From: a virus
IMG/VR virus record: IMGVR_UViG_3300016469_000277
Span: 32,001-96,000 of that record
Strand: one strand, 5' to 3'
Length of the DNA: 64,000 bases
Notes under the pieces: generated by a model
What the model saw: the letters and a program-made list of their open reading frames with translations, nothing else
What the model was told of the DNA's origin: nothing
The model's database searches: none
Made by a program: the position numbers and the translations under genes
In this document: positions 38,856 through 60,248 of the stretch, piece after piece
How the letters are laid out: the number at the start of each line of letters is the position of its first letter
Numbering within the stretch: position 1 is the first letter of the stretch

Positions 38856-39906
38856 TTATATTATGTTTTGAATTGTAACAGGTTTGTTGTAATCCGTAAA
38901 TATGTAACCAGTCTTTGAAAAATCAGCAAAGTTTTCTGCTTCAAAATTCCATTGATTTTCTGTTAGAGGTAAACCATAGTTTTCTCTTACCATGTAAAAA
39001 ATGTGACCATTATCACTTTGCATTAATTTAGGGTAATCAACAGTTAGATTTACCCCTTCTTCTTTTTTAATTATTATTGCCATTACTTTCTTTTGATTGG
39101 TTTTCTTCTTTTTGAGTTAGTTGTTTTGGGTTTTTTCCGTAAAGTTGCTGTTGATTTCTTTTTAGGTAACTCTGGTCTTGTCTCTGGTGCATAATTAGGT
39201 TCTTCTTTAGGACAATCTCTAAAAATAGTAGATTTACCTGCTTTAATTCTGCACATCAAAGGGGCTACAATACAAATGTCAAAAATAAAAATAACTAAAG
39301 CTAAGCAAATAGCCGAAGTACAGATAAATTGCCAAACTCCTGTATTATCAAGAGAGGTGTTAAGAACATACCCTACACCTAGTAGAGTAGCGATTGTTGC
39401 GAGGATTCTAATTCCCCACATTAAGATGTTATTTGGTATCATTGTTTTTAATTAGGTTAAAGTTAAAGTTCCCCCTCAGCACTACCTGGTCGGGGGAACT
39501 ATGAAACGCATTAGTAAGGAAGCCTCCCTGCAATTTGTTTAGTTAAATCATTATACTTTAGAAGTATACGATTCATCCACAACAGTTTTGCATCAGATTT
39601 AAACTCTTTGATGAAGTTTTCAATCTGTTTAGCTTCTTCGAATTTAGCTTCAAAGCCATCTTTGTCTCCTTTCATTATAAGCTCAAAAGCTTCTTTTTTA
39701 AGTTGACTAATCTGACTTTCCAGCTTAGAGAATGTCTCCCGAAGATTAAGTTCAATTGTTTCTTCAAGAGTCTTTACGAACAAAGAGGTATGTTTTGGAA
39801 GAACATACTCATCTTGTACTCTTACAGGCTTCTCTTTAGGAGGTGTGTAAGAGCCTACTTTTTCTGCTGAATACAGCTTTCCGTTTTGTCTGAATGTCTT
39901 TTTCAT
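38856..39906 (-). other. three hypothetical CDSs (38856-39083; 39083-39442 two-TM with basic tail; 39511-39906)
   Basis: ORF track; last start revised to lie downstream of the tRNA-like element. Confidence 0.65.
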
Positions 39907-39925
39907 AGTGTTTTTAATTAGTTTG

Positions 39926-40032
39926 TGCGAGTGACAGGATTCGAACCTGTACGTAGGACCTACAATTAGATGATCGGCTATCCTACAGTAGTGATGATAA
40001 TACTTGCGTCTAACCAATTCCGCCACACTCGC
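39926..40032 (-). ncRNA. tRNA-like RNA A (Leu-type D/T arms, non-canonical 55-nt centre)
   Basis: Acceptor GCGAGTG/CACTCGC+A; GGCGGAATTGGTTAGACGC; ACAGG-TTCGAAT-CCTGT; no canonical 7-nt anticodon loop. Confidence 0.8.
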
Positions 40033-40114
40033 ATTTTTCTCCTTATAAACCCTTCCGGTGCACCGAACAAGAAACTGGGGAGAAGTTGTTTCTACTTTTA
40101 ATTTTAACTTAAGT

Positions 40115-40758
40115 TTAATCTGATTCTCTTCCTGAATAGATAATAGTATCTGAATAAATATCTAGCCAGTAGTCAATAAATCCGTCATGCTTTAGATAAT
40201 AAACTCTGTCAAATTTAGGTTTCTTAAGACATAAAAGAATGTGAGAGTCTAATTTGAACACACAATGATTGATACAAGTATCGTGATCTAGAATGTGCGC
40301 TACAAAAGAAGAATCAAACTTTGTTAAAGGAGGAAAGTCCGAATGCACATTTAACTGTACATCCGGACTCTTACAAGCAAAAAATAGAGGGATAAGGATT
40401 AAAAGTCTCATAATCCTAGCATTACTTCAACAACTTTTTTCTTTTCGTTACGATTAAGCTTTTTAATCATAGCCAAAATGATGTCTAGTTGTTGTTCTAC
40501 TGACAATTCTTGTTTAAGGTCTCTTCTTGCGTTCTTTTGATTTCCTAAAGTGGAAATTCCGCTAGAAGAAACTACAGTCATAACAGTTCCCTCATGTCTT
40601 AACTTAGAATAATAATAAGCTGAAATAGCCCCTACGGTTCTTTCAGGCATACTAACAGCTGCTTTCTCAAAAGCTGCTCTTAAATTGTTAGGATACTGCT
40701 TCACAGCAGACAAAACGATGTTCTGGTCTTCTCTAGACCAACTTAATCTAGTACTCAT
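40115..40758 (-). other. two CDSs (40115-40411 lipoprotein-like, FFAC; 40408-40758 possible Myb/HTH-like)
   Basis: Lipobox-like signal; WSREDQ helix pattern. Confidence 0.55.
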
Positions 40759-40871
40759 AGTATTTTTTTCTTGGGTTTATTTTTTCTTGGTTTGTTTTAA
40801 TTAAAAAAATAAGGTAGTGAACTTAATCACTACCTTATCATTGAAAATCACAGTACAATGTGATTTTTGTT

Positions 40872-40984
40872 GCTCTTTATTCTATTACCCTTTTATTTCA
40901 GAGCAAACCTGCTTATCTATAGCGTCTCGCGTCCAAACGGTTATGGACCGTGGTGCCTTTATAAGATTTCAAGGGTACAGGTTT
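40872..40984 (-). ncRNA. candidate pseudoknotted structured RNA
   Basis: AAACCTG/CAGGTTT and GCTCT/AGAGC stems; TACCCTT/AAGGGTA crossing pairing. Confidence 0.5.
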
Positions 40985-40987
40985 TTG

Positions 40988-41119
40988 TAGTCAGGACAGG
41001 ATTCGAACCTGTATGATGTACTGCTTCACTTCCAAAACGGTTGATTCCCTTGTATGGACGCATCGACACATCTCCTATTTAATCTTATAGTAGCGTCTAA
41101 CCAATTCCGCCACCTGACT
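40988..41119 (-). ncRNA. tRNA-like RNA B (Leu-type D/T arms, non-canonical 80-nt centre)
   Basis: Acceptor AGTCAGG/CCTGACT+A; D and T arms identical to RNA A. Confidence 0.8.
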
Positions 41120-41292
41120 ATGTTTGCCTTTTAAAGTAGTTTAAACGACGTCAAAGTATTTGCAAAGGCTAACTAATACTTCTATCTCCTATACGATGAG
41201 AACGGACTTAATCCGTGTTTTACGATCCTCTGGCCTAGAGGCTAGTTTCTTCTCTAAAGCAGCCTTTGCAAAGATAATAAAGTTTAGAAAAT

Positions 41293-41691
41293 TTACCAAA
41301 TAAGATGCTTAACTATTTCTAGTACTTCTTCGTTAGGGATAGTTTGACAACCTACTTGAATTTTTCCTTTTTTGAAGGTTACTGTATAATCTCCTACGTT
41401 AACAATTGGAGGGGCTTTAAAAGAAGGATCTAACTCAAGAGAAATAATCTCTACTTTATTTTCTGTTAAGTTTACTGAGTTTCCCTTTCTAATACTCCAA
41501 GAATAATCAAATCCTAATTTGTCATAACAGAGAGCTCCATTTTTTACGTTTTGACAAAGATAAATGTCTCCATCTTCTTTTTGGATTCTTCCTTCACACT
41601 CAACTTCTTCAATCTTAGCTTTGAATTTAGTACCTACTGGTACATTATCCCAATCAGGGATTAATACGGTTTTAAATAAGTTATTTTCCAT
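41293..41691 (-). CDS. hypothetical protein
   Basis: 132-aa ORF, IQVGCQTI C-terminal motif. Confidence 0.7.
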   Translation of the reverse strand: MENNLFKTVLIPDWDNVPVGTKFKAKIEEVECEGRIQKEDGDIYLCQNVKNGALCYDKLGFDYSWSIRKGNSVNLTENKVEIISLELDPSFKAPPIVNVGDYTVTFKKGKIQVGCQTIPNEEVLEIVKHLIW

Positions 41692-41713
41692 GGTTTTTTA
41701 GTTTAATTTTTAG

Positions 41714-41789
41714 TAGCCGGAAGGGGAATCGAACCACCTATCTCCAAGATGAAATCTTGTTGTCCTAAAATCCATTAGACGATCCGGCC
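41714..41789 (-). tRNA. tRNA-Glu(TTC), atypical
   Basis: GGCCGGA/TCCGGCT acceptor; GTCTAATGG...AGGAC; loop AT-TTC-AT; TTCGATT T-loop; mismatches in anticodon and T stems. Confidence 0.7.
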
Positions 41790-41800
41790 ATTTTACCAAA

Positions 41801-43425
41801 TTAGAAACAGCGAAAACCGCCCAAAGTAAAAGAGTCAGTAAGTTTCTTTACAGAAGCTTTAGCTTTGTTAGCAATTACTCCTTCGCTTTCTCTTTTCTCT
41901 ACTGTAGTAGTAGATTTCTGTGTTTGATACGTTGTCTTTTTCATAGTTTTTATAGTTTAGTTTTTCTTTTTCTTGATTTACGAACATCAACAGGTTTAGC
42001 CTCAAGACAAAACCCTAAAATAAAAGCAGAAAGAATTAGGATTACGTAAGTCATAATCCTAATTCCTCGTACTCGTTAAATTCAATGTCTCTAATATCTG
42101 CTTCTAGGAAACATTTTTCAATATTTCCCATTACAGAATTAGATGGACTTGGTTTACCCTCGTTAAGTAACGATTCGTAGTGACTAATAATTTTAGAAAC
42201 ACTAACCCCATTGCGAACTGTGCCGTCAATGAGATTAGTGAATCTAATTTTAGTTTTTTCAAGAGCTTCAGTCTTTGTCATTTGGTTCCTCCTCGCAAAG
42301 ATTATCTTTAGCAAACTCATATTCTTCCATAACAGATTTAAAGCGATAATTTCTGCCAAATCTTTCTTTACGGTCATTATCCCAGTAATAATCAATAGCA
42401 AGAATCTTATCAAGCAAACTCAAATGATAAATTTGTGATCCTTCTAACTTTTTTATTTCTATAAAAGGAGGACCATAAGTAAACATACCTGTTTGTGCTT
42501 GGTCAATACGAACTTCATAACCTTGCGACAAAGACTCTATTATTTCGTCTTTAAGCAATAGAAAGTATTTACGATATTCATCTTCATAACTTTCTTTTAG
42601 TTCATAAAACATACTTTCTATTGCTTCTTCTTGTAATTTATAAAGAATGTTACGATCTTTAGAAAGTAAATCAGCAACAGAAGTGTAAACTTTAGGATTA
42701 CTACTGAATTGACTATCCACTAAAAAGTATATTTTAGCACTGATTGGATAACTTTCTTCTGTAGAGTAATCATATTCACTTCCTTCATAAGTATAGATAC
42801 CAAGCTCAAAACTTTTATCAATTGAGCTATTAAATGTACTGTCAGTTAGTTCAATAGTATCAATATACTTAATGTCGTGATCGGGATAAGCAAGTATTTT
42901 TGCTTTTTCTTGTTCAATCTCTTCATACCTAGGACTACCTGGTTTGTAGTCATTTGAAAAAAGACGATGAACTTGTTTTTTTTGATGATACTCTGTTACA
43001 ATTTCTGCAAAAGAGTCAGAAGCTTGTGTAGTTAGGATATTATCCAACACAAAAATGTTTTTTAGTTTTATTTTTCTCATAGTTTTAGTTTAGTTTAAGT
43101 TTAAGAAAAGAGAGCCCTATTACAGGCTCTCATTTACGTCTTCCGCTGTATAATAGTGTTTACCAGAACGCCATTGATACCATTCGTATTCTTCGTAATT
43201 ATAAAATTGTTCATAATCACAAGTAATATCTTCAGGATCTTGAGAATAAAATTCTTCTTTTGTCATACTAGGAACAAAGACTTTATTTTTTTCATTCTCT
43301 TGTTCTACGTAGACTTTAGCATCTTCTTCCCTAGCGAATACTTTGTAGAGATAAACACGATACTCTTCGTAAGGCAGTTCGTTATCATACCATACGAGGT
43401 AGACTTTTTTAACAGTATTTTCCAT
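41801..43425 (-). other. five hypothetical CDSs (41801-41944, 41950-42054, 42051-42281, 42268-43080, 43120-43425)
   Basis: ORF track plus two short ORFs read manually, with A-rich leaders or start/stop overlap. Confidence 0.6.
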
Positions 43426-43450
43426 AGTTTATACTTTTTAGTTTAGTTTA

Positions 43451-43597
43451 AAATTTACCCCTCTGCACTCAGTTGTAACTCCAGGTTTATACCCTGAGAT
43501 TCAGACATTACTACGCTGCAGTCTTTCTCTGCAGATGCTCGTATTCTTATTACAACTGTCAGCCCTTGGGAAGCTGAAGTGGTGCGTTAAAAAATTT
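43451..43597 (-). ncRNA. twister ribozyme 1 (type P1, long P5)
   Basis: U^AA-CGCA-CC...TCAGC-TTCCCAAGG-GCTGA-[P5 CAGTTGTAA/TTACAACTG]-TGCA-GA-GGG; predicted cleavage 43589/43588; one C-A mismatch in P2. Confidence 0.85.
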
Positions 43598-43609
43598 GAA
43601 CCTGTAAAT

Positions 43610-43713
43610 AATAAACAGCAAGGTGTGGACTTTTACCACAGTTAAGGAAGTTTGCAATTCCTTTCACAACCTCATGTTAGGCTTGTACTTCTTGTACACC
43701 CTCGCCATTTATT
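43610..43713 (-). ncRNA. candidate five-way-junction RNA
   Basis: 14-bp closing stem with three G-U pairs enclosing four hairpins. Confidence 0.6.
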
Positions 43714-43717
43714 TTTA

Positions 43718-44592
43718 TTATCCCTCTGCACTCAGTTGTAATAGATAGCCAGTAGTACTACAGTATGGGTTACATACTGTCCATTGCTGATTCCAACGCA
43801 GCATTACCTGAAGTTGGCGGTCACTATCTGTTACAACTGCTCACCCTTGGTGAGTGTGCTGAGGAGTGTAGTACCACTTATATCCATAAGCGGTTTTACT
43901 ACTATCTTTAGCTGCTTTTGACAAGCAGGTAGTTTTATAATTTAATTCTCTTTCTATGTCTTTCATACAAGACCACTCTTTGATAAATAACCCATCAAGA
44001 GTGTATTGGTATAGTTTTTTAGCTTTACCATGTTTAGCTCCAGAAAACATTTGAGAAAGTTTTTTCTTAGTTTCTTCAGTATGCTTAGGTCTATTTCCTC
44101 CTTTATTGAGATTAAGACCTTTGTTTTCATCTTTCCAATAGCATTTATAAAAAGCAATCCAATATTGCTCTCTTTCATCCGCTAAAGTGTCAGAAACCTC
44201 TTCTATTATCTCACACACATGATTCGCAAAACCATATTTTTTCAAAGAGTTATGTAATCTATATTGAGTTCTACAATGTAGAATTTTATATAAATTCATT
44301 CTCTTTTTATAATCCTTTGTTTGCCCAATATATACCTTTCCTGTTGGACTTGTGATTTTGTATATTGTTATCATAATACAAATATACAAAATAATGCACC
44401 ATTTCCCAAGGGCTTAGGAAAATAAATTTCTTTATCACCCTTGGGAAACTGATTAACTAACAATATACAACAGAGGATTTTACAACTGCTGTTATTATTC
44501 TTCATTAATCAGTGTGGTTTCACATCTTGACCCATCAAGCAGGGCAGCGACAAGAAGTCTTTATATCCACGTGAGTTATGGTGCATTAATAA
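43718..44592 (-). ncRNA. twister ribozyme 2, split (5' half 44571-44592, 3' half 43718-43850)
   Basis: TTAT-U^AA-TGCA-CC-ATAA-CTCAC ... CAAGG-GTGAG-P5-TGCA-GAGGG-ATAA, with a ~720-nt insertion in L4. Confidence 0.8.
43841..44374 (-). CDS. GIY-YIG endonuclease with NUMOD-type C-terminus (start revised)
   Basis: TIYKITSPTGKVYIGQT...R...E..WI...GLN; QYTLDG.FIKEW...AYGYKW. Confidence 0.9.
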   Translation of the reverse strand: MITIYKITSPTGKVYIGQTKDYKKRMNLYKILHCRTQYRLHNSLKKYGFANHVCEIIEEVSDTLADEREQYWIAFYKCYWKDENKGLNLNKGGNRPKHTEETKKKLSQMFSGAKHGKAKKLYQYTLDGLFIKEWSCMKDIERELNYKTTCLSKAAKDSSKTAYGYKWYYTPQHTHQG

Positions 44593-44629
44593 ATTGCTAT
44601 TTAACGGATAGCTCCGACAGAATCAGCTT

Positions 44630-45156
44630 TTATGTATAAGCATTAATAAAAGCGTATTGAATAAGTTTAAAGCCTTCAGTTTCTTTCATTTCATCACAAG
44701 GATGAATGTAAGCATAACTTACGTTACTAAAAGCCCCGTGCCACACTGCTTTAACAAAGGCATCTCTACCAAATTCAGCAATGAAAACATTCATGGAGTT
44801 GATTTCTTCAACTGAAACCATTTCTCCTATACCTACTGTAAACATAGTTTTTGATTGAAATTTCGTTTTTTCGCAAAGAAGGTTGTTCTCTCCCTACTAA
44901 GAGAGAGAGAAACAACCAATCTTCAACCTTCGTAACTTTGACTTTCAAATGAATTGAGTTCTGACTCATTTTGTAAATCAATTAGCTGTTGTAGTTTATT
45001 AGCAGGAAAACTAATATAATAATACTCAGCTTCAATTTCTTTTTTTGTTAATGCAACAGCGTATCTTTCAATAACTGTTGTACCTGTAGAGTAATTGATA
45101 AACTCTACTGTAAAAGGATTATATCCTATTACGTTGTGTGAAATATTATTGCTCAT
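44630..45156 (-). other. two small early CDSs (44630-44845, 44923-45156)
   Basis: ORF track, AAACTATG-type starts. Confidence 0.6.
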
Positions 45157-45416
45157 AGTTTATGTTGATTTTTAGTCGTTTTTGTTTGATAGCCAGTTTG
45201 TTCGGAAATTTTTCACTTTTTTCAAAGGCAATTTTTTGAGAATTTTTGTAAGATGAGGAGGTAAAAACCGCCTTTTTTCTACAAATTTACCTATATTTTA
45301 GTAGATAAATCTCGAGTTGTCTCCGAAATTCCCGGGAAAACACCAACTCATCTCATACTTTTACTACAAATAAGAGAAAAAAGCACAAAAAAGGGGGAAA
45401 TTAATCCCCCTTTAAG

Positions 45417-45686
45417 TTAAAAGTTGATACTTTCTAGGACAAAACGCCTGTAAGTTATCTCATTTACTGTTCTTGGTTCTATTTCTCTAATAGTAATTGT
45501 CTCTGCTTGTTTAAGTTGAAACATATCACTAATGGGAAACTGTGCTTTACTGCCAATAATAATCTTTTCGGATTTACCGTCAAAGTCTACTGTGATAGCA
45601 GCGTAGTCACGAACATAGGTGAAACCTTTTACAGGCTTTGTGAAGGTGGCGTTAGCCACGATAGCGGATTTAGTTGTAGTGCTCAT
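45417..45686 (-). CDS. small beta-rich early protein (start revised)
   Basis: Preceded by the candidate phage promoter; followed by a GGGGA/TCCCC terminator. Confidence 0.65.
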   Translation of the reverse strand: MSTTTKSAIVANATFTKPVKGFTYVRDYAAITVDFDGKSEKIIIGSKAQFPISDMFQLKQAETITIREIEPRTVNEITYRRFVLESINF

Positions 45687-45717
45687 TGTATTTAGTTTTA
45701 ATGCCACATTAGGCACT

Positions 45718-45751
45718 ACCAACAAAGGGGCATTCCTAAAAAAATACCCTA
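45718..45751 (-). promoter_or_regulatory. candidate phage-specific early promoter, copy 1
   Basis: TAGGG-N12-AATGCCCCTTTGTTGGT; second copy at 47099-47132. Confidence 0.55.
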
Positions 45752-45791
45752 CTACAACCTAATCTCTATCTAAGATAGACTTAACTTAAAG

Positions 45792-45850
45792 TTCTGTTTC
45801 GACCCTCAATTAGGTCATCATCAGCAGAGAGAATAACTCTCTGGACAGAA
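45792..45850 (-). ncRNA. hammerhead ribozyme 1 (type III)
   Basis: TTCTG-TC^-CAGAGAG/CTCTCTG-CTGATGA-T-GACC/GGTC-GAAA-CAGAA. Confidence 0.9.
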
Positions 45851-45851
45851 A

Positions 45852-45988
45852 TTAAAACAAGCAGTAGATAAACTCTCGAAATATAGTGGCCACTATAAAC
45901 GATACAAAGATATTTACAGATTTCTCAGGTCTGCTTTCTCTTTAACACAATTGAGAATGTGTTCGTACTTCTCTACTACTTGTTTTAA
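45852..45988 (-). ncRNA. candidate structured RNA domain with kissing loops
   Basis: 17-bp closing stem; inner loops TTCTCA and TGAGAA are complementary. Confidence 0.55.
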
Positions 45989-46243
45989 TAGTATATATCA
46001 GGAATATACCAGCACCGCTGTTTTTGCTCGTAGTCTACAGCTTAACCACAAGCCCCTATCCTTTCCCCTATTTACTACATTCGGGAATACTTTCAGGTAA
46101 TTTTTAAAGATTGCATGTTTTTGAATAACGCTTTTGTATTTGGTTAACTCATAAGCGTCGGATAGAAAGCAAAAGAGTTTGGTATGCAGTAATATACCAT
46201 TCTCTCTCTTTACTACAAGGAATGCCTTCCATAGTAGTGCTTT

Positions 46244-46303
46244 TTTCTGTTTCGGGACTCGATTATCCCATCATCAGGTAGAACAAAAGTCCTACGACAG
46301 AAA
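46244..46303 (-). ncRNA. hammerhead ribozyme 2 (type III)
   Basis: TTTCTG-TC^-GTAG/CTAC-CTGATGA-T-GGGA/TCCC-GAAA-CAGAAA. Confidence 0.9.
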
Positions 46304-46309
46304 GGGAGA

Positions 46310-46639
46310 CTAAGCTCCCTGACTTTTAAGTTGGTAGAACGAATGACTTCTATACCTTTCTTCAAGATAGTTAAGTATTCTTTCTAGTATGGGTGCTTCT
46401 TCAGCCCACATATCTGACTTGAGATAGTGGTCACGAAGTTCTTGCGAACCCAAGTCTTTACCACTGGCTATCTGAAAGCCAATAGTATCGAACCAATTAA
46501 ATGCACCTTCTACATAGCCACCACCATATTTGGTTTCGTGAACAGGTACATTAAGCACTTCATTGCAGATATCTTCATCTAATTTGTTGAGAGATACTGC
46601 TTCGTTTGTTTCTTTACTGTATAGTTTAAAGCAAATCAT
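46310..46639 (-). CDS. hypothetical early protein
   Basis: 109-aa ORF ending just before hammerhead 2. Confidence 0.7.
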   Translation of the reverse strand: MICFKLYSKETNEAVSLNKLDEDICNEVLNVPVHETKYGGGYVEGAFNWFDTIGFQIASGKDLGSQELRDHYLKSDMWAEEAPILERILNYLEERYRSHSFYQLKSQGA

Positions 46640-46746
46640 AGTTAAGTTAGTCTTTCAGATTATCCTGCTAACGGACAAGAGCAGTTTTGTTTTGAGAACC
46701 CAACAGAAACGAAACGACGAAAAAGGGGGGTTGCCCCCCCTTGTCG

Positions 46747-47058
46747 TTAGAACATTGTGCTGAAGCGTGGGTAATCGCCCTTGGTTGTGGAGTTGATACC
46801 ACGGAAGATAAGGGTGATTTCCGAATTCTTGAACGAGAGAACTTCAGCAAGTGTGCCGTCAAGTAACGCATTGAAGCGAGTCTTGAATTTGGGACAATCG
46901 ACATAGATGCGACAGATTGGCTTACCATTGATAGGTGCCATAGGCTGCACATTGGTGATTGTGCCGTGGATGCACTCTTCGATGTTGATTTTTGCCAAGT
47001 CTTTGGCTTCAGTTGGTGCTTGCGTAGCAAGGCTTGCGATGTTGAATGTATTTGACAT
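46747..47058 (-). CDS. first early gene, small beta-rich protein (start revised)
   Basis: Higher GC; preceded by the candidate promoter; followed by a GGGGGG/CCCCCC terminator. Confidence 0.65.
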   Translation of the reverse strand: MSNTFNIASLATQAPTEAKDLAKINIEECIHGTITNVQPMAPINGKPICRIYVDCPKFKTRFNALLDGTLAEVLSFKNSEITLIFRGINSTTKGDYPRFSTMF

Positions 47059-47098
47059 ATCTGTATTGTTTAAGGTACGGGGTACTGTCACCCGCGAA

Positions 47099-47132
47099 AC
47101 CAACAAGGGGGCATTGAAATAATAAACCCCTA
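47099..47132 (-). promoter_or_regulatory. candidate phage-specific early promoter, copy 2
   Basis: TAGGG-N12-AATGCCCCCTTGTTGGT. Confidence 0.55.
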
Positions 47133-47307
47133 TTCCCCTATACATACCGGGGGTTTTAAAATTTGAAAAAATTTTAGACTTTAAAACTAGGAGGGGGGGG
47201 GTTCTAAAAAATTAAAAAATTGGGTGGGGGTGTTTTCTCAAGTACCCGTAGTAGAAAAGACTTGTATAAATTTCAAAAAAATCTATCTTTGTGTAAATTG
47301 AGTCAAG

Positions 47308-47940
47308 GTGCAGTTAAATCACAATCTTAAAGGGTATAAGTGTTTAGTAAGGTTAAGTCACTTTACTAAAAGGGAAGAGGATAGGAATACTTTTCATCAG
47401 GGATATATGTTTGCGCTACAGTCTGTCTCTATGAAGATACTTACCTTTCATGTTATGACTGACTACGGCATGCTAAGAAGTAGGGTTCCTTTAAGTGAGA
47501 TCTTTTTCAAAGAACCTCTAGCGGATATTCCTTATTACTTTAAACAGTTGTGGGACTGCTTCTCAGAGAATGTCTCAGTAATCGAGTACGAATTTTTAAA
47601 AGAAAAAAGATGTCAGGTAATTTTAAGAGACGGAAGTAAGGTGTGGGCTACTTACCTTTTTACAGTAGACTGGTACAATAACGGATACTCAGATGAACCT
47701 TCGGATTATAAGTGTGGCCATGTCCTAGTAGCAGATGAAGGTTATTTACTTTGCCAACCAAATAATAGGATATATTGGAGAGACTCTAATTGGGTAACTA
47801 AGCCTTTTCCTATCAATCCAAGAGAATTTAAAGTAGACGAAGAAATTCCTTCTGTTGAAACCGTAGCAGATAGGTGGATAGCTGAAGATACAGATTCTTT
47901 TTACTATAATATAAATGACATAGAAAATACACCAACTTAA
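47308..47940 (+). CDS. conserved phage hypothetical protein
   Basis: QLWDCFS...YLFTVDW...K..H...QPNNRI.W motif set. Confidence 0.75.
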   Translation: MQLNHNLKGYKCLVRLSHFTKREEDRNTFHQGYMFALQSVSMKILTFHVMTDYGMLRSRVPLSEIFFKEPLADIPYYFKQLWDCFSENVSVIEYEFLKEKRCQVILRDGSKVWATYLFTVDWYNNGYSDEPSDYKCGHVLVADEGYLLCQPNNRIYWRDSNWVTKPFPINPREFKVDEEIPSVETVADRWIAEDTDSFYYNINDIENTPT

Positions 47941-47950
47941 ATATATAATT

Positions 47951-48325
47951 ATGTTCACTATAAAAACATACCTTAAAGAATCTCCAGGGAAAGGGCTGGG
48001 AATCTTTGCTAAAAAGTTTATACCAAAGGGCACAGTTATTTGGGAATTTCTAGAAGACTTTGATATTAAAGTTCACAAGGATAAAATCAAAGAACTTAAT
48101 TTAGTTCAGAAAGATTTTATCTTTAAGTACTTTTGGCAAGAGGGGGATTATTATTATTCTTCTTGCGATCATTCTATTTTTCAAAATCACAGCTATGACC
48201 CTAACTCTGTTCCTCAAGGAGACTATATGATAGCTTCTAGAGATATTGAAGCAGACGAAGAAATAACAACTAACTATCAGCACTTTGACGACGGATTCGA
48301 TGCCTATAAAGATATTTTGTTTTAA
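47951..48325 (+). CDS. SET-domain protein
   Basis: GKGLGIFA...I.KG; NHS.DPN; A.RDI...EEITTNY. Confidence 0.9.
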   Translation: MFTIKTYLKESPGKGLGIFAKKFIPKGTVIWEFLEDFDIKVHKDKIKELNLVQKDFIFKYFWQEGDYYYSSCDHSIFQNHSYDPNSVPQGDYMIASRDIEADEEITTNYQHFDDGFDAYKDILF

Positions 48326-58682: not shown

Positions 58683-60248
58683 ATGCCAAACATGAACATC
58701 CCACGCGTCAATGGCCGAATAGTCGCTAACGCTGGAACTGCTAGTTCTTACTATCAGAAGAATAAACTTGGAAAGTTTACTGATAAGAACTTTATTGAAA
58801 CAATGCTTCGTACTTCCCCCGATCAGTACGACAAAGCTATGATTCGTCTTTTCACTGACACCCGTCTTTACTCAAACGACTTTGTTGATTTGGTGATGAA
58901 CTCAGGTGCTCCTTTCGTTTCTAACGATCCTAACGGTGTTTTTACCTACAAGATTAAGAAAAGGGCTGAGCTTCCTAAAATCATGATTAACTTGGCTGAC
59001 ACCACTCCTAAGCCTGGTGTTGACGGTCAAACTTTTGAGTTGGTATTTGACAAAGAAATGTTCGCTGTTAATGATGTGATCTCTGCTCATCGTCGTGAAC
59101 AGGAAGTTTTGATTCAGATTGTTTCTGATTTCGAACCTTATCAGAACTTCTTCAAATACACTTGTAAAGCTGTAGGTGAATCTACTGACTACGTTCACCA
59201 GCGTTTCTTGAGTGTTGGTACCGAATACTTCAAAATCGGTATGTTGTCAGGCGAATACACTACCAGCTGGTCTAGCCTTGGTGCTATTGACGGTAGCTTG
59301 GAAGTTGTAAACGACGTATTGCAACAGTACGGTATCGAACATACTATCACCGATTGGGCTGACGCTACCAAAATTGGTGTTAAGTATGACGCTGCTGGTA
59401 AGCCTATCAACGACATCACTTACTACTCTATCGCTGAAATTGACATCAATGGCCAACCTATCAACGTAACAGTTGGTTGGGAACCTACCGTATCTAAATT
59501 GATGCGTATGGAAATGATTCGCATGAAAGCTAACACTTTGATGTGGGGTCGTAAAGGTAACGGTGTAGATGAAAAAGGTCGTCCTGTACGTGCTAAAGCT
59601 GGTTTGTGGCAGCAATTGCACCTTGGTAACGTAATTTATTACGACAAAGGTCAATTCTCAATCAACTTGCTTCGTTCTGCAGTAGGTGACTTGTTCTACA
59701 ACCGTGTACGTATCGAAGATCGTCACGTTAAAATCTACACAAACCGTTCTGGTATGGAATTGGCTGCTACCGCTATGAAGAAAGACTTCAATGCTTCTGG
59801 CTTCACAGTGTTGGCTTCTGATTTCTTGGATAGCAAAGCTAACGGAGCAAACGGTAAAGACCGTCGCTTGAACCAGGGTTATGCTTTCCAATTCGACCAC
59901 TTTATGACAGTTGAAACTGGCTTGGTTGAATTCAAAGAACTCGAACAGTTGAACGAACATGCTACTTTCTTGGAACTTGGTCCTAACAAGAAAACTCCTC
60001 CGATCTATATTATCCTTGATATTTCTGGCGAAGGTGGATCAAACATCCGCGAATGTAAGCTTGGCACTCGTCCTAACATGATGTACAAATACATTCCTGG
60101 TGCTACAGATTCTAGCATTGCTAAAATGTTTGGAAACTTGGCTACCTCGAAAGATCCGTATGATACTATCTTGATGAAAGACTGGGCTGGTATCTTCTTG
60201 GAAGATCCTACCAGGACTATCCTCATCAAAGAATATCCTCAGATCTAA
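58683..60248 (+). CDS. major capsid protein
   Basis: 521 aa, synteny, AGLWQQ motif, strongly biased codons, followed by a terminator. Confidence 0.85.
   Translation: MPNMNIPRVNGRIVANAGTASSYYQKNKLGKFTDKNFIETMLRTSPDQYDKAMIRLFTDTRLYSNDFVDLVMNSGAPFVSNDPNGVFTYKIKKRAELPKIMINLADTTPKPGVDGQTFELVFDKEMFAVNDVISAHRREQEVLIQIVSDFEPYQNFFKYTCKAVGESTDYVHQRFLSVGTEYFKIGMLSGEYTTSWSSLGAIDGSLEVVNDVLQQYGIEHTITDWADATKIGVKYDAAGKPINDITYYSIAEIDINGQPINVTVGWEPTVSKLMRMEMIRMKANTLMWGRKGNGVDEKGRPVRAKAGLWQQLHLGNVIYYDKGQFSINLLRSAVGDLFYNRVRIEDRHVKIYTNRSGMELAATAMKKDFNASGFTVLASDFLDSKANGANGKDRRLNQGYAFQFDHFMTVETGLVEFKELEQLNEHATFLELGPNKKTPPIYIILDISGEGGSNIRECKLGTRPNMMYKYIPGATDSSIAKMFGNLATSKDPYDTILMKDWAGIFLEDPTRTILIKEYPQI

What the first reader, a model, noticed from the sequence alone, without database searches (positions are those of the whole stretch)
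39926..46303. Early region is an RNA-processing cluster of ribozymes, tRNA mimics and structured RNAs
Within ~6.4 kb, all on the - strand: two hammerheads, two twisters, one tRNA, two tRNA mimics and at least four further multi-stem RNAs, interleaved with short ORFs. Self-cleavage plus RNase P/Z-type processing would cut one early transcript into discrete RNAs. Several elements share a conserved-scaffold, variable-insert design (twister P5, tRNA-mimic centres). Inference: a programmed small-RNA output system, possibly anti-defence decoys or guides.
Basis: partly seen in the sequence, partly recalled or inferred. Interest (0 to 1): 0.85.

Follow-up and report, generated by a model that had tools for sequence, protein, structure and literature searches.

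The report
Phage island of self-cutting RNA scaffolds
A crAss-like phage carries a 6.4-kb stretch packed with real hammerhead and twister-like ribozymes, a tRNA, anticodon-less tRNA look-alikes and other folded RNAs, whose constant frames hold inserts that differ between phages; this fits the long-known but unexplained clustering of ribozymes near phage genes, and the job of the RNAs is still unproven.

Summary
On the minus strand of a Crassvirales genome I confirm:
- two type-III hammerheads, with strong covariation across 25 sequences;
- one intact twister-like ribozyme;
- a second, larger twister-like element split by a 594-bp GIY-YIG homing-endonuclease cassette;
- tRNA-Glu;
- two anticodon-less tRNA-Leu-type shells;
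- at least three further folded RNAs, two of them with compensatory changes.

Rfam reports only the three tRNA-type hits. Its hammerhead and twister models find nothing, so the ribozymes are uncatalogued variants and cleavage is inferred.

Exact-word scans found the hammerhead variant in 27 viral loci. They found the twister and the tRNA shell in at least 120 viral loci each. The shell is in no cellular tRNA gene.

Inserts are nearly all unique and fold better than shuffles. In the shell family, slots with about 90% identical flanks hold unrelated interiors.

"One early transcript" is not supported: four terminator-like hairpins and promoter-like boxes divide the region. "Guides" against the phage's own genome are not supported. 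"Decoys" is untested.

The closest precedents are the hammerhead/twister gene association (function unknown) and the T4 tRNA cluster with rnaC, rnaD and segB.

This scan had already noted the tRNA-shell family and the twister variant on other DNA.

The parts
46244..46303 (-). Hammerhead HH1, type III, cut between 46296 and 46295. It sits directly behind a hairpin that overlaps the stop codon of ORF 46310-46639.
   Evidence: Sequence and family covariation. The lowest-energy fold of HH1 alone is a competing non-hammerhead fold.
45844..46295 (-). 452-nt RNA without an ORF, bounded by the two hammerhead cuts. Its 3' 270 nt or so form a conserved multi-helix fold.
   Evidence: Homologues in L008 (90% identity), L018/L002, L011 and L022 (about 75%). 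83 predicted pairs, 17 with compensatory changes. z -4.7 for 46240-45844.
45792..45851 (-). Hammerhead HH2, type III, cut between 45844 and 45843.
   Evidence: The lowest-energy fold is the three-way junction, z -2.9.
44435..44603 (-). 5' part of the large (class 2) twister-like element: P1 strand, U|AA at 44598/44597, P2 strand, P4 strand, two extra hairpin domains, and the L4 loop.
   Evidence: Matches class-2 elements that are intact in about 16 other loci.
43841..44434 (-). 594-bp homing-endonuclease cassette, with the GIY-YIG ORF at 43841-44359. It holds a 21-nt stretch (44412-44392) complementary to the L4 loop and to the cleavage-site strand.
   Evidence: Pfam GIY-YIG E 1.5e-5 and PHROG homing endonuclease E 6e-20. 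The 10-bp direct repeat lies 594 bp apart. Fold z -6.9 for 44629-44390. A -7 box lies at 44386-44379.
43718..43840 (-). 3' part of the split twister-like element: P5 with an 89-nt insert, P2 strand, GAGGG, and P1 strand.
43595..43717 (-). Multi-hairpin RNA: a closing stem holding four hairpins.
   Evidence: z -3.5. 29 pairs, 6 of them compensatory against L018, where the element lies just in front of a tRNA gene.
43451..43597 (-). Intact twister-like ribozyme B (type-P1 layout with an obligatory P5 holding a 71-nt insert). It lies 25 nt upstream of ORF 43120-43425.
   Evidence: It has a C-A mismatch at the first P2 pair.
41713..41789 (-). tRNA-Glu (UUC).
   Evidence: Rfam 43.2 bits and ARAGORN.
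40808..41292 (-). RNA-only unit: a -7 box at 41276-41269, a folded leader at 41292-41120, tRNA shell TL2 at 41119-40988, a folded trailer at 40987-40860, and a terminator-like hairpin at 40839-40808.
   Evidence: TL2's 24-nt T-arm and acceptor word is found in at least 120 viral loci.
39926..40032 (-). tRNA shell TL1. It has the same D and T arms as TL2, a different fully paired acceptor stem, and a 55-nt non-decoding centre. It lies 20 nt upstream of ORF 39511-39906.
   Evidence: Rfam tRNA 40.4 bits; not called by ARAGORN.
40115..46639 (-). Interleaved short ORFs of 47-270 aa: 46310-46639, 45417-45686, 44923-45156, 44630-44845, 43120-43425, 42268-43080, 42051-42281, 41801-41944, 41293-41691, 40408-40758 and 40115-40411.
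   Evidence: ORF list. Of the 11 ORFs, 10 were scanned (41801-41944 was not). The first nine were scanned against PHROGs only and 40115-40411 against Pfam only; none had a match.
45390..45413 (-). Terminator-like hairpin. Others on this strand lie at 46740-46726, 43131-43110 and 40839-40808.
   Evidence: 18 terminator-like sites found in 39000-48000 against 4.6 expected.

Best explanation
This is an RNA-gene island at the head of the leftward (replication-side) gene module of a crAss-like phage.

Several short transcription units mix small ORFs with RNA genes. Two routes trim the transcripts:
- The two hammerheads and twister B cut themselves. Each stays as a compact 5'-hydroxyl cap on the downstream piece and leaves a cyclic-phosphate end on the upstream piece.
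- Host RNase P and RNase Z cut out tRNA-Glu and the two tRNA-shaped shells.

The expected products are a 452-nt folded RNA, a twister-capped message, one true tRNA, and two anticodon-less shells.

The constant parts are the ribozyme cores and the acceptor, D and T arms. I read them as processing and stability modules. The inserts are the twister P5 arm and the shell centres. I read them as a payload that phages exchange; its target is unknown.

The island is mosaic. Modules move between unrelated phages with break points at the conserved RNA frames, and a GIY-YIG homing endonuclease has invaded one twister gene.

Shown: the elements, their conservation and covariation, insert turnover, and mosaic borders.

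Inferred: transcription, cleavage, RNase P/Z processing, and any action in trans.
For: Setting:
- Crassvirales identity comes from a Crass_capsid match.

Real RNA families:
- Hammerhead covariation.
- Twister P4 and P1 covariation.
- Shell acceptor stems occur in at least eight different fully complementary versions.
- The 452-nt RNA has 17 compensatory pairs. Element 43717-43595 has 6.

Distribution:
- These ribozyme motifs occur nowhere else in the 108-kb genome.
- The elements lie on one strand in 261 of 264 loci.
- They co-occur within about 5 kb. 7 of 27 hammerhead loci also hold a twister. 16 of 119 twister loci also hold a shell.
- The shell word occurs in at least 120 viral loci. It occurs in only 14 contigs among representatives of 185,579 species, all metagenome bins, and all 14 are again shells, never a decoding tRNA.

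Inserts:
- 119 of 141 insert clusters are singletons.
- Mean fold z is -1.3, and 89% of P5 inserts are below zero.
- Five related phages (L241, L262, L215, L244, L251) have flanks 260-284 of 300 nt identical. Four of the five interiors are unrelated to one another; L215 and L244 share theirs.

Mosaic borders:
- L008 shares with this genome only the 531-nt HH1-RNA-HH2 module, at 90% identity, ending at the hammerheads.
- L018 shares only three RNA patches.

Placement next to ORFs:
- The family's hammerheads sit a median of 22 nt before the next ORF.
- Here twister B, tRNA-Glu and TL1 lie 20-25 nt before ORFs.

Precedent:
- T4's tRNA cluster also holds two stable RNAs of unknown function and a GIY-YIG homing endonuclease.
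Against: - No RNA data could be obtained, so expression, ends and timing are unknown.
- Rfam's hammerhead and twister models score nothing here.
- All hammerheads of the family carry an extra U in the core.
- HH1 alone prefers a competing fold.
- Twister B has a mismatch at the first P2 pair and a weak A-U P1.
- The second twister is interrupted, and its 5' half is predicted to be locked by an antisense stretch.
- HH1 is missing in L011 and L022, so two-sided excision is not conserved.
- The shell family mostly occurs without ribozymes: only 2 of 118 shell loci hold a twister. The island is therefore an assembly of separable modules rather than one obligate system.
- Variable peripheral stems are common in ribozymes, so P5 variation alone does not prove a payload.
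- The invariance of the searched words is partly by construction.
Confidence: 0.5

Rival explanations
1. Cis-acting punctuation only. The ribozymes and tRNA shapes serve just to cut multi-gene transcripts. This gives each small ORF its own message with a defined, protected 5' end, and separates messages from neighbouring RNAs. On this view the inserts are tolerated peripheral stems with no function of their own.
For: - Hammerheads of the family lie a median of 22 nt before the next ORF, and 73% lie within 60 nt.
- Twister B, tRNA-Glu and TL1 lie 20-25 nt before start codons.
- HH1 follows a hairpin at the end of an ORF.
- Processing of polycistronic transcripts has been proposed for bacterial hammerheads and twisters (PMC6765202).
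- RNase P and RNase Z need only the acceptor/T-arm half of a tRNA (established knowledge). This would explain why only that half is constant.
Against: - TL2 lies in an RNA-only unit with its own promoter-like box and terminator, and no ORF to serve.
- Inserts are long (shell median length 104 nt, up to 322) and folded above chance, although deletion to a minimal form would be the neutral expectation.
- Whole interiors are replaced between close relatives.
- Only 34-36% of twisters and shells lie within 60 nt of an ORF.
Confidence: 0.28
2. Selfish or recombination modules. The conserved frames persist mainly because they spread between co-infecting phages by homologous recombination and endonuclease-driven homing. 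They shuffle adjacent genes and bring the phage little direct benefit from the RNAs themselves.
For: - Module borders coincide with the RNA frames. L008 shares only the hammerhead-bounded module. Five twister pairs share one flank only.
- A GIY-YIG cassette sits in the most conserved stretch of a twister, with a 10-bp repeat. A homologous endonuclease gene (81% identical) lies next to a twister in L096.
- T4 segB is annotated as a homing endonuclease inside the tRNA cluster.
- Near-identical words of 20-24 nt recur in over 120 loci each.
Against: - Compensatory changes in stems show selection on the RNA fold, not only on DNA identity.
- Catalytic-core and tRNA-elbow nucleotides are the conserved ones.
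- Co-orientation with transcription holds in 261 of 264 loci.
Confidence: 0.14
3. Viroid-like circle. The two same-sense hammerheads release the 452-nt RNA with ends that a host RtcB ligase joins into a circular RNA carrying one complete hammerhead.
For: - Both hammerheads carry the same 8 nt before the cut, so ligation would rebuild a full ribozyme.
- The architecture matches tandem-hammerhead circular RNAs (PMC5680766, PMC7761336).
- L018/L002 and L008 keep both hammerheads.
Against: - L011 and L022 lack the upstream hammerhead but keep the RNA.
- The conserved fold pairs the 3'-terminal 8 nt with an internal stretch, which fits a linear end.
- No RtcB gene is in the phage.
- No read data are available.
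Confidence: 0.08

Closest known systems
Co-clustering of hammerhead and twister ribozymes near phage-related genes in bacteria (Roth et al. 2014; Weinberg et al. 2015; as summarised in PMC6765202 and PMC10085705)
   Same: Two unrelated self-cleaving classes lie within a few kb of each other, next to phage genes and other uncatalogued folded RNAs. Their purpose is unknown.
   Different: - The setting here is a free Crassvirales genome.
- The ribozymes are variants that Rfam's models miss.
- They are interleaved with a tRNA, tRNA shells and a homing endonuclease.
- The strongest published gene association was with Mu-like phage genes.
Phage T4 tRNA gene cluster with stable RNAs rnaC and rnaD and the GIY-YIG endonuclease segB (NC_000866 70908-71918); T5 RNA1/RNA2 named by earlier notes of this scan
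   Same: A phage RNA island with true tRNAs, small stable RNAs of unknown function that have a tRNA-like 3' part, and a GIY-YIG homing endonuclease inside the cluster.
   Different: - T4 has no ribozymes there.
- rnaC scores only 17.5 bits against a tRNA model, while TL1 and TL2 pass the tRNA threshold.
- No insert-swapping family is described for T4.
Type III hammerhead ribozymes (Rfam RF00008)
   Same: A three-way junction with closed stems I and II and an open stem III. The core has CUGAUGA, GAA and an A-U pair, with a cut after GUC. The loops are conserved, which suggests a loop-loop contact.
   Different: One extra U lies between the core and stem II in all 25 sequences. From my own knowledge, an extra base at this place is known in one viroid hammerhead. 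No Rfam hammerhead model matches.
Twister ribozyme, type P1 (Rfam RF03160; structures 4OJI and 4RGE as reviewed in PMC6154101)
   Same: The order is P1, U-A cut site, P2, P4 with a loop able to pair with both internal loops (T1 as CCC with GGG, T2), then a GAGGG strand. P1 is short, as in env22.
   Different: - T2 would be CC with GG instead of GC with GC. That comparison rests on my memory of the rice sequence.
- The loop has 9 nt.
- P5, present in about 1% of known twisters, is obligatory here and carries 22-155 nt.
- A second form has two extra domains between P4 and its loop.
- Rfam models give no hit.
Engineered RNA carriers: tRNA scaffolds for recombinant RNA, ribozyme insulators, and twister-flanked expression cassettes (from my own knowledge, not checked here)
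   Same: A payload is placed in the anticodon arm of a tRNA frame, or beside or within a self-cleaving ribozyme. The aim is defined ends and stability.
   Different: Those are man-made. Here the design is natural and its purpose is unknown.
Retrozymes and viroid-like circular RNAs with hammerheads (PMC5680766, PMC7761336)
   Same: Two same-sense type III hammerheads bound a non-coding structured RNA of a few hundred nt.
   Different: This one is encoded in phage DNA. There is no reverse transcriptase or RNA replication in view, and some relatives lack the upstream hammerhead.

Membership tests
Hammerhead ribozyme (type III) | Three helices around a junction, supported by covariation | tested here: met
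   On 25 sequences, stem I is 96.7% paired and stem II 100% paired. 9 pairs have changes on both sides. None of 500 shuffles reaches the covariation score.
Hammerhead ribozyme (type III) | Conserved core: CUGANGA, GAA, the A15.1-U16.1 pair, and a cut after an NUH triplet | tested here: met
   CUGAUGA, GAAAC and GUC are invariant or nearly so in alignment A2.
Hammerhead ribozyme (type III) | Core without inserted bases; recognised by the curated models | tested here: not met
   An extra U follows CUGAUGA in all 25 sequences. No Rfam hammerhead family reaches E<=10.
Hammerhead ribozyme (type III) | Site-specific self-cleavage | not testable with these tools
   This needs an in vitro transcription assay or end-mapped RNA-seq.
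Twister ribozyme | Helix order P1-P2-P4 (with optional P5), and a U-A step in the 5' strand of the P1/P2 loop | tested here: met
   In 66 distinct members, P4 is paired in 65, with at least seven fully complementary sequence combinations. P1 pairing exceeds shuffled partners (2.86 against 1.50, highest shuffle 1.85). UAA precedes P2.
Twister ribozyme | Two pseudoknots between the P4 loop and both internal loops | tested here: inconclusive
   The complementary triplet and doublet are present. Both partners are invariant in the set, which was collected with a word that includes one of them, so no covariation can be read.
Twister ribozyme | Match to the curated covariance models | tested here: not met
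   RF03160 and RF02684 give no match at E<=10 on the genome. The full Rfam scan also gives none, even on family members with short P5 arms.
Twister ribozyme | Self-cleavage | not testable with these tools
   This needs a biochemical assay.
tRNA (decoding) | Acceptor, D and T arms with the elbow nucleotides | tested here: met
   TL1 scores 40.4 bits and TL2 34.3 bits against a threshold of 29. Acceptor stems covary across the family.
tRNA (decoding) | 5-bp anticodon stem with a 7-nt loop and U33 | tested here: not met
   ARAGORN calls neither shell. 46 and 68 nt replace the 13 model positions of the arm. Of 134 distinct family members (54-322 nt), none among the 45 shortest printed shows a standard anticodon arm.
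T4-type tRNA-region stable RNAs (rnaC, rnaD) | Small stable RNA encoded beside phage tRNAs with a tRNA-like 3' part | tested here: inconclusive
   The context is alike. There is no sequence relationship. rnaC reaches only 17.5 bits on a tRNA-type model. Stability was not tested.

The most novel reading that the evidence does not exclude
Phages of several lineages use a common kit of self-processing RNA frames (hammerhead, twister, tRNA-Leu shell). The kit expresses interchangeable, folded RNA payloads that act in trans on host factors, for example as decoys for RNA-sensing or tRNA-targeting defences. That would be an RNA counterpart of anti-defence gene islands. On this reading, the decade-old puzzle of why hammerheads and twisters cluster near phage genes is explained: they are the release-and-protect modules of such payloads.
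Probability: 0.15. Interest if true: 0.9.

Novelty: new variant of a known kind. Interest (0 to 1): 0.66.

Why it matters
Why hammerhead and twister ribozymes gather near phage genes has been open since 2014 (PMC6765202).

This island puts both classes in one defined phage context. They sit together with a tRNA, tRNA-shaped shells and other covarying RNAs. It also shows three testable regularities:
- The RNA frames are the only stretches conserved at nucleotide level between otherwise unrelated phages.
- Their inserts are replaced rather than drifting.
- Module borders and a homing endonuclease sit on the frames.

The island also adds ribozyme variants that the curated models miss. This implies that censuses of phage ribozymes undercount them.

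The limit is that everything functional is inferred and the phage is uncultured.

Tried and rejected
- Rfam scans at the gathering threshold and at E<=10 gave no hammerhead, twister, pistol, hatchet or RAGATH hit in the window. Direct scans with RF00008, RF03160 and RF02684 also gave nothing.
- blastn of the region against 50,697 GenBank phage records gave no match.
Transcription and ends could therefore not be checked.
- Inserts and the 452-nt RNA were tested as antisense guides against the phage's own genome. The longest matches were 10-15 nt, inside the range of shuffles. This idea is rejected for the phage's own genome. The host is unknown, so host targets could not be tested.
- I looked for a Ro60/Y-RNA link because crAss001 has an early TROVE gene (PMC10136315). 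No TROVE gene and no RtcB gene are in this genome.
- I asked whether the shell is a copy of a host tRNA. It is not. There are 14 hits among representatives of 185,579 species, all in metagenome bins and all shells.
- I asked whether the 452-nt RNA is widespread. It is not: a conserved 24-nt word finds 4 viral loci.
- The same insert was never found in two different scaffold types across loci.
- Literature searches for this architecture in crAss-like or other phages found no description. The two primary ribozyme papers are not held.

Full report
SETTING

The window is bases 32001-96000 of a 108-kb IMG/VR virus record estimated 94% complete. A Crassvirus major capsid domain (58683-60248), a family A DNA polymerase and a helicase identify a crAss-like phage. 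Strand skew and ORF direction switch near 47 kb. The finding therefore lies at the promoter-proximal end of the minus-strand module that runs on into the replication genes. "Early" is plausible by analogy with crAss001 and phi14:2 (PMC10136315). It is not shown.

WHAT THE CATALOGUES SEE

- Rfam at its curated thresholds reports only three tRNA-type hits: tRNA-Glu at 41789-41713, and two longer hits at 40032-39926 and 41119-40988.
- ARAGORN calls only tRNA-Glu.
- At E<=10 no ribozyme family appears.
- Direct scans of the genome with Hammerhead_3, twister-P1 and Twister-P5 also find nothing.

Everything below therefore rests on the sequence and on comparison with other loci.

HAMMERHEADS

Both candidates read as type III hammerheads. 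The layout is an open stem III, GUC at the cut, a closed stem I, the CUGAUGA box, one extra U, a 4-bp stem II with an 8-nt loop, then GAAAC.

- A pattern built on the core and loop II found 27 viral loci.
- On 25 distinct sequences, stem II is paired in every cell, with changes on both sides in 3 of 4 pairs. Stem I is 96.7% paired, with such changes in 5 of 6 pairs.
- No shuffle and no slid register comes near.
- The pattern fixed the core and loop II but not the stems, so the covariation is independent of the search.
- HH2 folds into the junction on its own. HH1's lowest-energy fold is a competitor.
- Across the family the next ORF starts a median of 22 nt downstream.

TWISTERS

Sixty-six distinct members share one layout:

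- a short variable P1, then UAA;
- a 4-5-bp P2;
- a 4-bp P4 closing a 9-nt loop containing CCCAAGG;
- a 9-bp P5 base enclosing 22-155 variable nt;
- the P2 return strand, GAGGG, and the P1 return strand.

P4 is fully paired in 65 of 66, with at least seven fully complementary sequence combinations. P1 pairs better than shuffled partners.

This is the twister order of helices. The U-A step sits in the right loop, and both pseudoknots are possible (features as reviewed in PMC6154101). However, the pseudoknot partners do not vary, and the curated models fail even on members with short P5 arms. I therefore file these as probable twister variants, not proven ones.

Twister B (43597-43451) is a complete member. 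It has a C-A mismatch at the first P2 pair.

The second element belongs to a larger form seen intact in about 16 loci. That form has two extra covarying hairpin domains between the 5' strand of P4 and its loop. In the window a 594-bp cassette interrupts it:

- The cassette is bounded by a 10-bp direct repeat at 44444 and 43850.
- It encodes a GIY-YIG homing endonuclease.
- Just inside the cassette, 21 nt are complementary to the loop and to the cleavage-site strand.
- The resulting fold has z -6.9.

This copy is probably silenced. First readers of neighbouring findings had seen this. I confirmed the repeat, the spacing and the fold.

tRNA SHELLS

TL1 and TL2 share leucine-type D and T arms and discriminator A. 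Their acceptor stems differ but are fully paired. Centres of 55 and 80 nt cannot decode.

- TL2's T-arm plus acceptor word occurs in at least 120 viral loci, with up to six copies in 5 kb.
- It gives 134 distinct RNAs of 54-322 nt, none with a standard anticodon arm among those inspected.
- Among representatives of 185,579 prokaryote species it occurs 14 times. All 14 are in metagenome bins and all are shells.

The frame is therefore phage-borne, not a copied host tRNA.

OTHER RNAs

- The 452 nt between the hammerhead cuts are conserved at 90% in L008 and about 75% in four other loci.
- Its 3' 270 nt or so give 83 consensus pairs, 17 of them with compensatory changes. These include a 22-bp long-range helix, and a helix that pairs the last 8 nt before the HH2 cut with an internal stretch.
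- Only HH2 is kept in all relatives.
- 43717-43595 is a four-hairpin junction (z -3.5) with six compensatory pairs against L018.
- 40987-40860, 45790-45690 and 41292-41120 are weaker.

TRANSCRIPTION UNITS

Four terminator-like hairpins on the minus strand lie inside the region. Bacteroidota-type -7 boxes lie ahead of the TL2 leader, the endonuclease gene and the ORF block at 45156. The -7 box motif is not clearly enriched in the window overall.

TL2 thus looks like an RNA-only unit of about 450 nt. A single long early transcript is not the simplest reading.

INSERTS AND MOSAICISM

- Of 141 insert clusters, 119 are singletons.
- Inserts fold better than mononucleotide shuffles, with mean z -1.3 for 109 P5 inserts.
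- Five related phages have shell flanks 260-284 of 300 nt identical. Four of the five interiors are unrelated to one another, at 40-83 nt; L215 and L244 share theirs.
- L008 shares with this whole genome only the HH1-RNA-HH2 module, with borders at the hammerheads. L018 shares only three RNA patches.
- Co-occurrence within about 5 kb is far above chance but partial.
- Nothing is complementary to the phage's own genome beyond shuffles.
- The genome has no TROVE and no RtcB gene.

READING

I commit to an RNA island whose constant frames provide release and protection, and whose inserts are exchangeable payloads. My confidence in that whole picture is about 0.5, split as follows:

- about 0.9 that the elements are real RNAs;
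- about 0.75 that HH2 and twister B cleave;
- about 0.6 that the shells are RNase P/Z substrates;
- about 0.35 that the products act in trans.

The main rival is pure cis punctuation of small-ORF messages. Selfish spread and circularisation are lesser rivals. These readings are not exclusive.

The phenomenon of hammerhead/twister clustering is known, with unknown purpose. The nearest whole-locus analogue is the T4 tRNA cluster with rnaC, rnaD and segB.

Earlier notes of this scan had already found the shell family and the twister variant on other DNA. I re-tested those claims here rather than relying on them.

CAUTION

The families were gathered with exact words. The invariance of those words is by construction, and the counts (27, at least 120, at least 120) are lower bounds for those exact words only.

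Noticed in passing
window 43841-44444: A GIY-YIG homing-endonuclease cassette of 594 bp is inserted in the most conserved stretch of a twister gene, with a 10-bp direct repeat. Inside it, 44412-44392 is antisense to the ribozyme's loop and cut-site strand. An 81% identical endonuclease gene lies beside a twister in L096.
   Followed up: partly
L086, L044, L053, L062, L113 and others: A larger twister form has two extra covarying hairpin domains between the 5' strand of P4 and its loop. This gives three variable arms in one ribozyme. That insertion point is not among the optional stems P0, P3 and P5 listed in PMC6154101.
   Followed up: partly
L008:9298-9822 against window 46320-45793: An 11-kb contig shares with the 108-kb genome only the hammerhead-RNA-hammerhead module, at 90% identity. 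The similarity stops at the two hammerheads.
   Followed up: partly
L096:2710-2795: A weak match (35.5 bits, E 0.0095, below threshold) to the RAGATH-1 hammerhead family lies directly behind a twister's 3' strand. This is a second kind of hammerhead in the same type of island.
   Followed up: no
L156 (six copies in 5 kb), L168 (four in 1.9 kb), L182 (three): These loci hold dense tandem arrays of the tRNA-Leu shell with identical ends and different interiors.
   Followed up: no
window 46725-46740: A G/C-run hairpin reads as a terminator on both strands. It lies between the first two minus-strand ORFs of the module.
   Followed up: no
window 43110-43131 and L004, L014, L020, L023: The same terminator-like hairpin motif recurs behind ORFs. 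In several loci it is fused directly to the 5' strand of a hammerhead's stem III, so that ribozyme cleavage would leave the upstream message ending in that hairpin.
   Followed up: no
window 45844-45851 with 46049-46056 (approx.; columns 55-62 and 271-278 of alignment A3): The 8 nt before the HH2 cut can pair either in hammerhead stem III or with an internal conserved stretch of the 452-nt RNA. This could be a switch between the cutting fold and the product fold.
   Followed up: no
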